The notes under the pieces are model-generated. The model worked only from the letters and a program-made list of their open reading frames with translations, had not been told where the DNA came from and ran no database searches. 64,000 nucleotides of DNA from a bacterium (GTDB lineage Bacteria; Patescibacteriota; Minisyncoccia; UBA6257; 2-01-FULL-56-20). Positions within the stretch are counted from its first letter, which is position 1, and each line of letters starts with the position of its first letter. A program made the translations under genes and the position numbers. Location of the stretch: contig JAJXZE010000002.1 of assembly GCA_021780195.1 (NCBI GenBank), positions 20,220 to 84,219 of the forward strand. Reading direction: 5' to 3'. Shown here one piece after another: positions 58,684 through 58,737 of the stretch.

Positions 58684-58737
58684 TCTCTTTCTCGGATGTG
58701 TATCCGAGCTGATGAGTCCGAAAGGACGAAAAGAGAC
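58684..58737 (+). ncRNA. type III hammerhead ribozyme
   Basis: Stem III TCTCTT/AAGAGA; cleavage site UUU|C (58690/58691); stem I CTCGGAT-GTGT-ATCCGAG; core CTGATGA; stem II GTCC-GAAA-GGAC; then GAAA. All 11 invariant core nucleotides are present in order. Confidence 0.6.

What the first reader, a model, noticed from the sequence alone, without database searches (positions are those of the whole stretch)
58684..58737. Canonical type III hammerhead ribozyme core at the 3' end of the island operon
The sequence reads CUCUUU|C-(stem I CUCGGAU-GUGU-AUCCGAG)-CUGAUGA-(stem II GUCC-GAAA-GGAC)-GAAA-AGAGA. All 11 invariant core nucleotides are present (C3 U4 G5 A6 U7 G8 A9 G12 A13 A14 and the A15.1-U16.1 pair), with three correctly placed helices and an allowed UUU cleavage triplet. 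If this element is active, cleavage would separate the mRNA of the last gene from a downstream ~260-nt hairpin-rich segment (58738-59022) that contains two TATAAT-like boxes and ends at an intrinsic terminator. Bacterial hammerheads are typically linked to phage or mobile DNA, which fits this island.
Basis: partly seen in the sequence, partly recalled or inferred. Interest (0 to 1): 0.7.

Follow-up and report, generated by a model that had tools for sequence, protein, structure and literature searches.

The report
Conserved self-cleaving hammerhead ribozyme, operon end
The flagged 53 bases are a genuine, evolutionarily maintained type III hammerhead ribozyme of a widespread bacterial/phage kind; the ribozyme is ordinary, but in related genomes a plain hairpin sits in exactly its place, which makes the unsolved question of what bacterial hammerheads do testable.

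Summary
The motif is present exactly as described, at 58684-58736, with predicted cleavage between U58690 and C58691. It is not a chance match. Five operon orthologues found by protein homology carry it at the same place, with no core changes and four compensatory base-pair changes. A covariance model built only from unrelated loci scores it 74.3 bits (E about 1e-24). Rfam's gathering threshold misses it, but it also misses 16 of 16 control members of this class, so that miss is uninformative. The loops are not minimal: they fit the published UNmYN/RNnA tertiary-contact motifs and match plant satellite-RNA hammerheads. UUU cleavage triplets recur in the class and in one orthologue.

The ribozyme sits in a repeated RNA module (purine block, hairpin P0, CU strand, insert, GA strand). 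In the module's other copy and in some orthologues the insert is a long plain hairpin. Downstream lies a conserved rod-like RNA with an invariant CU-rich bulge, which is also found next to hammerheads in genomes without this operon. The operon additionally holds an undescribed structured RNA of about 500-640 nt.

Verdict: a new member of a known ribozyme class, most likely a cis processing site. Self-cleavage is untested.

The parts
57056..58564 (+). Last protein gene of the operon (family about 490-530 aa, no Pfam/NCBIfam match), interrupted here by an in-frame TAA at 58364-58366 where all homologues have Gln.
58574..58591 (+). Small conserved hairpin just after the stop codon (ACCUCG-UCCACC-CGAGGU). 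The stem covaries (CCUCG/CGAGG versus CUUCG/CGAAG) and the loop is invariant.
   Evidence: Alignment A2; sequence.
58613..58630 (+). Conserved block GGAGUGGAUAAUGGCUCA. It resembles a Shine-Dalgarno site plus AUG, or a -10 box. The ORF that follows is not conserved in length (29, 5, 6, 72 and 16 codons in five loci), so it is probably not coding.
58631..58646 (+). Purine block AAAGGGUUAAAAGGUUU, equivalent to AGGGUUUAGGGUUU in relatives and in module copy A. This is the first element of the repeated module.
58654..58684 (+). Hairpin P0 (13 bp) directly abutting stem III. It scans as terminator-like, but the tail is CU-rich and is not a U-tract. A structure abutting stem III is a general feature of this hammerhead class.
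58684..58736 (+). Type III hammerhead ribozyme. Predicted cleavage is 3' of U58690 (triplet UUU), leaving a 2',3'-cyclic phosphate on the upstream RNA and a 5'-OH on C58691.
58753..58761 (+). TGATATAAT, an extended -10-like box just 5' of the rod RNA. TATAAT-like sequence is kept at this place in L124, L365 (TAAAAT), L140 and L357, and is absent in L123 and L254. Whether it acts as a promoter or as an RNA motif is unresolved.
58766..58945 (+). Rod-like structured RNA: 63 consensus pairs, 10 of them with compensatory changes and several invariant G-U pairs, so it folds only as + strand RNA.
58859..58908 (+). Invariant core of the rod RNA: AAAAAUCUCUCUCCUCUAAAA - CACCGUUCCUCGGUCUG - UAUAAUUUCAGG. 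In the consensus fold, UCUCCUCUAAA is an 11-nt unpaired bulge.
58956..58982 (+). Short hairpin between the rod and the terminator. Its sequence is not conserved in relatives.
58997..59022 (+). Intrinsic terminator (7-bp GC-rich stem followed by a T-run), the 3' end of the unit.
55738..55830 (+). Module copy A: AGGGUUUAGGGUUU - hairpin - CUUCUUCC - long plain hairpin X - GGAGAGAG. It has the same architecture as 58631-58740, but with hairpin X where the ribozyme arms are in copy B.
55163..55805 (+). Large conserved non-coding region inside the operon. It is a candidate structured RNA, and module copy A forms its 3' end.

Best explanation
58684-58736 encodes a functional, selectively maintained type III hammerhead ribozyme. 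It belongs to a large natural class found in phage, Patescibacteria and other bacterial DNA. The class layout is: a hairpin abutting stem III; a 7-bp stem I closed by a UGUGUR-type loop; CUGAUGA; a 4-bp stem II with an RAAA loop; GAA; and a 3-7-bp stem III.

Proposed mechanism. When the + strand is transcribed, either from the operon or from a start near 58631, the ribozyme folds co-transcriptionally next to hairpin P0. The loop 1-loop 2 contact docks stems I and II. The RNA then cleaves itself between U58690 and C58691.

The upstream product (the operon mRNA or its 3' UTR) ends six bases after the stable hairpin P0 with a 2',3'-cyclic phosphate. The downstream product of about 330 nt begins with a 5'-OH and the folded ribozyme body, carries the conserved rod-like RNA with its exposed CU-rich bulge, and ends at the terminator (58997-59022). 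The ribozyme would therefore be a protein-independent processing site or insulator that uncouples the fates of the two RNAs. In orthologues and in the module's other copy, the same position is filled by a long perfect hairpin X, which I infer to be a substrate for a double-strand-specific RNase.

Shown: the sequence, the fold, conservation, covariation, class membership, the presence/absence pattern, and the conserved downstream RNA.
Inferred: self-cleavage in vivo, which transcript carries the element, stabilisation by P0 and by the 5'-OH, and the idea that hairpin X is an enzymatic cleavage site.
For: - **Orthologues.** Five orthologous loci reached through protein homology (window, L460, L365, L124, L123) carry the element at the same position. 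In A3, 100% of cells are paired. Ten of 53 columns vary: eight make four compensatory pairs (all in L123), and the other two are H17 (C/U) and the first base of loop 2 (G/A). No core nucleotide changes.
- **Conservation.** The 53 nt are at least as conserved as the non-coding flanks in all four comparisons, and more conserved than the gene's 3' end in three of four.
- **Class.** 92 distinct complete type III hammerheads were found among 251 pattern hits in genomes and metagenomes, and 31 more among viral contigs. The 80-sequence alignment has 94% of cells paired and a covariation score of 0.71 against 0.18 for shuffles.
- **Model.** R1, built without the window or its kin, scores the window 74.3 bits.
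- **Loops.** They fit UNmYN/RNnA. L114 and L402 (366 and 377 nt) have the same loop 1 and stem II as the window; L395 (359 nt) carries the sTRSV-type variant.
- **UUU triplet.** It is found in 5 of 88 class members and H17=U in 16 of 88. Orthologue L460 also has UUU.
- **P0.** P0 and the hammerhead coexist in the MFE and the centroid. Upstream structure is enriched across the class (p about 1e-12; 58% against 25% abutting stem III).
- **Hairpin X.** It occupies the same position in copy A and in L461, L464 and L369.
- **Downstream RNA.** It is conserved with covariation and is linked to a hammerhead in L140, L357 and L254 with no operon genes in the DNA fetched for them.
- **Literature.** Bacterial hammerheads are proposed to process polycistronic RNAs (PMC3088659; PMC6765202).
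Against: - No cleavage assay or RNA-end data exist for this element.
- All four compensatory changes among the orthologues come from one sequence (L123).
- The class set was collected with a pattern taken from this element's own stem I and loop, and my filter required the inner pairs. Class-level pairing statistics are therefore partly ascertained.
- U at position 17 with a U16.2-A15.2 pair is a minority choice (GUC is the commonest triplet, 33 of 88). From general knowledge of minimal hammerheads it is expected to be slower.
- The neighbouring gene carries a nonsense codon in this genome, so the locus could be decaying.
- P0 plus its tail was flagged as terminator-like, and a -10-like box follows the ribozyme. 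The ribozyme might therefore rarely be transcribed together with the downstream RNA.
- Orthologues without the ribozyme show it is dispensable for the operon.
Confidence: 0.75

Rival explanations
1. The motif is a real hammerhead by descent but is an inactive or weakened relic in this genome. The locus is decaying, the ribozyme carries the less favourable U17/UUU site, and nothing here depends on cleavage.
For: There is a CAA-to-TAA nonsense change in the adjacent gene. H17 is C in L123, L124 and L365 but U here. GUC dominates the class. Orthologues L368, L369, L461 and L464 lack a ribozyme.
Against: All core nucleotides and all 17 pairs are intact. The UUU form is shared with orthologue L460 (79% protein identity), so it is not a private mutation. 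H17=U occurs in 16 of 88 class members and UUU in 5. The reading frame after the TAA is otherwise intact and conserved, so any decay is very recent.
Confidence: 0.12
2. Hairpin P0 with its CU-rich tail terminates most operon transcripts, and the downstream RNA is made from its own promoter (TGATATAAT, 58753-58761). The ribozyme would then see little RNA and would only trim occasional read-through, which is insulation and not maturation.
For: The terminator-like call at 58654-58684 and the promoter-like call at 58733-58761 with TG. The TATAAT-like box is conserved at that place in L124, L365, L140 and L357.
Against: The tail has only three consecutive U, and in relatives it is CUCUGUUCC or CUCUCUUCC. 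Across the class the bases after the hairpin are the stem III strand (for example UCUGUC), not a U-tract. L123 and L254 keep the ribozyme and the CU motif without any TATAAT. No conserved -35 is present, and the TG is missing in L140 and L357. Strong conservation of a ribozyme that is rarely transcribed would be hard to explain.
Confidence: 0.1
3. Chance resemblance, or contamination by an engineered sTRSV-derived insulator sequence.
For: The stem II and core string differs by only two loop bases from the widely used synthetic CUGAUGAGUCCGUGAGGACGAAAC (59 papers hold it).
Against: The element sits in the same genomic position in five independent assemblies with natural variation and compensatory changes. 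E is about 1e-24 with an independent model. Hundreds of natural relatives exist in genomes, metagenomes and viral contigs.
Confidence: 0.01

Closest known systems
Type III hammerheads of plant viroid-like satellite RNAs (sTRSV(+) and relatives) and of viroids such as ELVd
   Same: Same topology, with stems I and II closed and stem III open. Identical core. 4-bp stem II GUCC/GGAC capped by a purine-rich tetraloop. Loop 1 contains the GGAUGUG motif. Contig L395 (359 nt) carries ACCGGAUGUGCUUUCCGGUCUGAUGAGUCCGUGAGGACGAAAC. L114 and L402 (366 and 377 nt) carry exactly our GGAUGUGUAUCC and GUCC-RAAA-GGAC and score about 66 bits with the bacterial model. Helix/loop sizes of 7/4, 4/4 and 6 equal those of ELVd(+). 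The loops fit the UNmYN/RNnA contact motif.
   Different: This element is encoded once in bacterial DNA, not in a circular RNA replicon. There is a single ribozyme and no opposite-polarity partner or tandem copy, so there is no rolling-circle processing or circularisation. The cleavage triplet is UUU with A15.2-U16.2, not GUC. That the roughly 360-nt contigs are satellite RNAs is my inference from their size and sequence.
Bacterial and phage genomic hammerheads flanking genes (Perreault et al. 2011, PMC3088659; de la Pena et al. 2017 review, PMC6155905)
   Same: DNA-encoded and intergenic, on the sense strand of an operon, in horizontally mobile contexts. The proposed role is cutting long transcripts into units with separate fates. 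The window element is a full-scoring member of a class with at least 120 such examples.
   Different: Here the ribozyme precedes a conserved non-coding RNA, not a gene. It sits in a repeated RNA module, and orthologues have a plain hairpin in its place. I found no description of that arrangement, though my literature search was limited.
RiboJ-type synthetic insulators (sTRSV hammerhead placed 5' of a functional RNA; own knowledge)
   Same: A cis-cleaving type III hammerhead removes whatever lies upstream. It remains as a folded 5' cap-like structure with a 5'-OH on the downstream functional RNA.
   Different: RiboJ is engineered, whereas this element is natural and conserved. Whether insulation is its selected function is inferred and not tested.

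Membership tests
Hammerhead ribozyme | Conserved catalytic core: C3 U4 G5 A6 N7 G8 A9, G12 A13 A14, the A15.1-U16.1 pair, and H17 not G. | tested here: met
   CUGAUGA at 58709-58715, GAA at 58728-58730, A58731-U58689, and U58690. The core is invariant in five orthologues.
Hammerhead ribozyme | Three helices around the core, supported by covariation. | tested here: met
   Orthologues: 17 pairs, 100% of cells paired, 4 pairs with compensatory change, and none in slid controls. Class: 94% paired with 11 covarying pairs (the inner pairs are partly ascertained by my filter).
Hammerhead ribozyme | Type III topology: stems I and II closed by loops, stem III open. | tested here: met
Hammerhead ribozyme | Loop 1-loop 2 tertiary contact elements of natural (full-length) hammerheads. 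| tested here: met
   By sequence only. Loop 1 U-GUG-U-A fits UNmYN and loop 2 G-AA-A fits RNnA (PMC2632901). In viral examples collected without constraining loop 1, the loop 1 region reads U-G(A/U)GU-G in most. The contact itself has not been shown.
Hammerhead ribozyme | Site-specific self-cleavage giving 2',3'-cyclic phosphate and 5'-OH ends. | not testable with these tools
   Needs in vitro transcription or RNA-end mapping.
Rfam RF00008 Hammerhead_3 | Score at or above the curated gathering threshold (48.5 bits). | tested here: not met
   24.1 bits, as a local match to model positions 7-48. Control: 0 of 16 loci with clear class members reach gathering, and three further members (two in L357, one in L140) score 36.8-40.3 bits. 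The threshold therefore excludes this whole bacterial class, and the failure says little about this element.
Intrinsic (Rho-independent) terminator, considered for hairpin P0 at 58654-58684 | A GC-rich hairpin immediately followed by a U-tract. | tested here: inconclusive
   The simple scan flags it (13 bp, 5 T in 8). However, the longest U run is 3, the tail doubles as the stem III strand, and relatives have CU-rich tails, not U-rich ones.
Known anti-phage defence systems (PADLOC), considered for the operon | Component proteins matching a described system. | tested here: not met
   Only weak IetA-like, TRIP13-like and pVip-like domain matches to the AAA+ and radical SAM proteins. The other four proteins tested have no match (NCBIfam).

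The most novel reading that the evidence does not exclude
The hammerhead is the self-processing 5' module of a previously undescribed conserved non-coding RNA. The full unit is: purine block, hairpin P0, ribozyme or hairpin X, a rod of about 180 nt with an exposed UCUCCUCU bulge, and a terminator. The unit occurs both as part of an uncharacterised radical-SAM/AAA+ operon, which also encodes a new structured RNA of about 500-640 nt, and on its own in Patescibacteria genomes. Homologous RNAs carry either the ribozyme or a long perfect hairpin at the same position. The two would therefore be functionally interchangeable cleavage sites, which would give the first comparative evidence of what a bacterial hammerhead is for.
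Probability: 0.35. Interest if true: 0.7.

Novelty: new member of a known kind. Interest (0 to 1): 0.45.

Why it matters
Bacterial hammerheads have been known by the hundreds since 2010-2011, but reviews still call their function unresolved. This locus offers a natural experiment. One conserved RNA module exists in three states: with a ribozyme, with a plain long hairpin, or with the insert deleted. The ribozyme-bearing form is linked to a conserved downstream RNA in unrelated genomic contexts. That makes the "processing site / insulator" hypothesis directly testable by swapping the inserts and mapping RNA ends. The work also shows that Rfam's Hammerhead_3 threshold systematically misses a large bacterial, phage and Patescibacteria class, which matters for genome annotation.

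Tried and rejected
- **Rfam at gathering threshold** over the whole window gave only three tRNAs. I rejected this as evidence against the element after the control.
- **Conserved upstream block in viral contigs:** two hits, both chance matches inside coding sequence. The module is therefore not seen on known viral contigs.
- **Small ORF after the SD-like block at 58613-58630:** rejected as coding, because its length is 29, 5, 6, 72 and 16 codons in five loci (read).
- **27-codon ORF at 58766:** rejected for the same reason. The stop is not conserved in L365.
- **Long-range pairing 58721-58733 with 58972-58984**: not conserved in L365 or L124, so I treat it as chance.
- **PADLOC, Pfam and NCBIfam on the operon proteins:** no known system.
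- **6S-like or other known RNA identity** for the rod RNA and the large internal RNA: no Rfam match even with permissive filters.
- **L122's different 3' region:** no Rfam match.
- **Operon association of other class members:** none of the 8-kb class loci carries the operon.

Full report
**1. Observation**

The sequence at 58684-58736 reads UCUCUU-U-CUCGGAU-GUGU-AUCCGAG-CUGAUGA-GUCC-GAAA-GGAC-GAA-AAGAGA. Every core position of a hammerhead is present. Stems I (7 bp), II (4 bp) and III (6 bp) are fully paired, and stems I and II are closed by loops, so the topology is type III. The scissile bond is between U58690 and C58691.

Folded alone, the segment adopts this junction as its minimum-energy structure. 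With 56 nt of upstream and 29 nt of downstream context, both the MFE and the centroid keep a 13-bp upstream hairpin (P0, 58654-58684) running straight into the three-way junction (z = -4.3).

**2. Is it more than chance, and what does the Rfam miss mean?**

The whole-window Rfam scan at gathering thresholds returned only three tRNAs. With permissive filters, RF00008 matched the core at 24.1 bits against a threshold of 48.5. I tested that criterion on 16 other loci carrying clear hammerheads of the same design, and none reached gathering. Three further members (two in L357, one in L140) scored 37-40 bits. The curated threshold therefore excludes this class as a whole, and the miss is uninformative.

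I then built a model (R1) from 80 class members found elsewhere, excluding the window and its operon relatives. It finds the window element full length at 74.3 bits, E about 1e-24, with no non-standard pair, and it is the only hit in 64 kb. One caveat applies. The seeds were collected with a pattern taken from this element's stem I and loop, so the score is independent only for the outer stem I pairs, stem II, the GAA and stem III.

**3. Orthologous conservation**

Homologues of the upstream protein led to contigs carrying the same operon. The hammerhead is at the same position after the last gene in L123, L124/L125, L365-L367 and L460. These loci were reached by protein identity, so there is no RNA ascertainment.

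In the five-sequence alignment, 10 of 53 columns vary:
- Eight form four compensatory pairs. Three are in stem II (GUCC/GGAC to GCUG/CAGC) and one is in stem III (C-G to G-C). All four come from L123.
- One is H17 (C or U).
- One is the first base of loop 2 (G or A).

No core base changes. The ribozyme is at least as conserved as its non-coding flanks in all four comparisons. It is also more conserved than the last 300 nt of the gene in three of four; L123 is the exception. L460 shares the UUU triplet, so that triplet is not a private lesion of this genome.

**4. The class it belongs to**

A scan of viral contigs for the core plus stem II gave at least 120 contigs, among them 31 distinct type III examples with the same layout. 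Scans of genome and metagenome collections gave 251 pattern hits, of which 92 distinct ones complete a type III hammerhead. Many of these are in Saccharibacteria, Kaiserbacteria, Paceibacterota and Gammaproteobacteria MAGs.

Class features:
- The 80-sequence alignment is 94% paired, with heavy covariation in all three stems (the inner pairs were required by my filter).
- H17 is C in 56, U in 16 and A in 16 members. UUU occurs five times.
- The 45 nt upstream are much more structured than random 45-mers from the same loci (mean -12.9 against -7.8 kcal/mol, p about 1e-12). In 58% against 25% of cases, a stable structure ends within 3 nt of stem III. P0 is therefore part of the class design.

The loops are not minimal. 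Read as a 6-bp stem with loop U-GUG-U-A, and with loop 2 G-AA-A, they fit the UNmYN and RNnA motifs that make the loop-loop contact in most natural hammerheads (PMC2632901). The helix and loop sizes equal those of ELVd(+) (PMC1636495). Three roughly 360-nt contigs in the viral collection also score with R1. L395 carries the sTRSV-type sequence, and L114 and L402 carry exactly our loop 1 and stem II. From their size I infer that they are plant satellite RNAs.

**5. What it is embedded in**

*The gene.* The last gene's annotated ORF stops at TAA 58364-58366, where every homologue has Gln. The next 66 codons are conserved, so the ancestral gene ends at 58564.

*The module.* Between the ancestral stop and the ribozyme lie, in order:
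- a small covarying hairpin with an invariant UCCACC loop;
- the block GGAGUGGAUAAUGGCUCA;
- a purine block (AGGGUUUAGGGUUU in relatives);
- hairpin P0;
- a CU-rich strand that forms the 5' side of stem III.

*A second copy.* The same architecture occurs at 55738-55830: AGGGUUUAGGGUUU, a hairpin, CUUCUUCC, a long perfect hairpin X, then GGAGAGAG. There, the CU and GA strands close hairpin X in the way stem III closes the ribozyme.

*States of the second-copy position in orthologues*:

| State | Loci |
|---|---|
| Hammerhead | window, L460, L365-L367, L124/L125, L123 |
| Hairpin X | L461, L464, L369 |
| Almost nothing (UCUUCC-GA-GGAAGA) | L368 |
| Module absent | L122, L462 |

The 3' arm of X plus the GA strand (UGAUGAGUUCGGAGAGAG) resembles the ribozyme at the same place (UGAUGAGUCCGAAAGGACGAAAAGAGA). 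I cannot tell whether that reflects descent or chance.

**6. The downstream RNA**

The 396-nt stretch 58630-59025 folds far better than shuffles (z = -9.95). Bases 58766-58945 form a rod with 63 consensus pairs, 10 of them with compensatory changes and several invariant G-U pairs, so it is a + strand RNA structure.

Its interior is almost invariant: AAAAAUCUCUCUCCUCUAAAA, CACCGUUCCUCGGUCUG and UAUAAUUUCAGG. In the consensus fold, UCUCCUCUAAA is an 11-nt bulge.

The unit "hairpin, hammerhead, CU-motif RNA, terminator" recurs with no operon genes in the DNA fetched for those loci: in a Kaiserbacteria MAG (L140), in L357 and in L254. L123 and the ribozyme-less L464 and L369 keep the CU motif without the outer rod arms.

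**7. Mechanism proposed**

The ribozyme cuts the + strand transcript at 58690/58691. The upstream RNA is left ending just after hairpin P0 with a cyclic phosphate. The downstream RNA starts with a 5'-OH and the folded ribozyme body and ends at the terminator. This matches the role suggested for bacterial hammerheads in general.

The local novelty is that a long perfect hairpin occupies the same slot in homologous RNAs. That suggests the slot's function is cleavage, carried out either by a host double-strand RNase or by the RNA itself. These functional steps are inferred. Only the anatomy and its conservation are shown.

**8. Rivals**

- *Relic in this genome.* This is possible given the nonsense codon and U17, but the element is intact and the UUU form is shared with L460.
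- *P0 as terminator with a separate promoter for the downstream RNA.* The tail is not a U-tract, and the TATAAT box is absent in L123 and L254, which keep the ribozyme and the CU motif.
- *Chance or synthetic contamination.* Both are excluded by the orthologues.

**9. Comparison and novelty**

The ribozyme is a canonical type III hammerhead and a new member of a known kind. In its periphery it is closest to satellite-RNA hammerheads, and in its biology it is closest to the gene-flanking bacterial and phage hammerheads. I found no description of the module, of the ribozyme/hairpin alternation, of the CU-motif rod RNA or of the large internal RNA, but my literature search was limited.

**10. Limits**

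- There are no experimental data.
- Few sequences were available for the two new RNAs (4-5 each).
- The host organism is unknown.
- Which transcript carries the ribozyme is not known.

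Noticed in passing
window 55163-55805 (also L122, L123, L124, L365, L368, L369, L464): A stretch of about 640 nt between the AAA+ gene and the next gene has stops in all three forward frames. It is nevertheless 87-90% identical at the DNA level to L122 and L123, and over its 3' 480 nt to L365. The consensus fold has 143 pairs, 27 of them with compensatory changes. It matches no Rfam family, and a profile finds it in 13 operon-bearing loci. 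It is a candidate new large structured RNA.
   Followed up: partly
window 55738-55830 and 58631-58740: Two copies of one RNA module lie in the operon: purine block, hairpin, CU strand, insert, GA strand. The insert is a long plain hairpin in copy A and the hammerhead in copy B.
   Followed up: partly
window 58364-58366: An in-frame TAA sits where all homologues have Gln (CAA), splitting a gene of about 500 aa. The 66 codons after it are still conserved. This is either a recent nonsense mutation or a sequencing error.
   Followed up: yes
window 51584-58564 and loci L122-L124, L365, L369, L462, L464: A conserved, uncharacterised operon: 96-aa and 149-aa proteins, DUF2997, an NrdG-like radical SAM activase (below all curated cutoffs), a CDC48-like AAA+ ATPase, the large RNA, and proteins of about 250, 113 and 500 aa. 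There is no PADLOC system. In other genomes it lies next to integrase, Fic, patatin, SNase or HEPN/NTase genes. Many homologues come from Patescibacteria MAGs.
   Followed up: partly
window 55806-56621: The 271-aa ORF probably starts at ATG 55869 (MDKVQIYPQG, preceded by AAAGGAGG), as in the 250-aa homologues. The first 21 codons overlap hairpin X.
   Followed up: partly
loci L139, L152, L154, L166, L174, L224, L230, L256, L287, L305, L320, L352 and others: Many class hammerheads, especially in Patescibacteria, are followed within about 10 nt by AAGUUCUUUGAAAA-like sequence (16 of 88 by a loose pattern). From memory this resembles the boxA antitermination element. The window has only a poor match (CAGAACAUUAAAAAAG).
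   Followed up: partly
L114 (366 nt), L402 (377 nt), L395 (359 nt): The IMG/VR 'viral contigs' of about 360 nt carry type III hammerheads that score 43-67 bits with the bacterial class model. L395 has the sTRSV sequence. These are probably plant satellite or virusoid RNAs, and L114 and L402 share loop 1 and stem II with the bacterial class.
   Followed up: partly
L357 and L232: Each holds four hammerheads of this class within about 7-8 kb, consistent with gene-flanking arrays.
   Followed up: no
Rfam RF00008: The gathering threshold of 48.5 bits misses this whole bacterial, phage and Patescibacteria type III class: 0 of 16 loci at gathering, and the best members reach 37-40 bits.
   Followed up: yes
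window 38849-43019: Three tRNA genes lie close together: Gly-UCC (- strand), Ile with the unusual UAU anticodon, and His-GUG. Next to them is a Fic/HTH gene at 43278-44207.
   Followed up: no
window 58705-58714 with 58936-58945: CGAGCUGAUG can pair with CAUCAGCCCG at the 3' end of the rod, and in the predicted fold of the 3' cleavage product the CUGAUGA core is sequestered this way. The partner is kept in L124, is wobble-compatible in L365, and is absent in L140. It is a possible post-cleavage conformer or chance.
   Followed up: partly
L122 7546-7900: The closest protein homologue (87% identity) lacks the whole 3' module. It has an unrelated sequence of about 350 nt before an AAA_14/DUF4143 gene, with no Rfam match.
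   Followed up: partly
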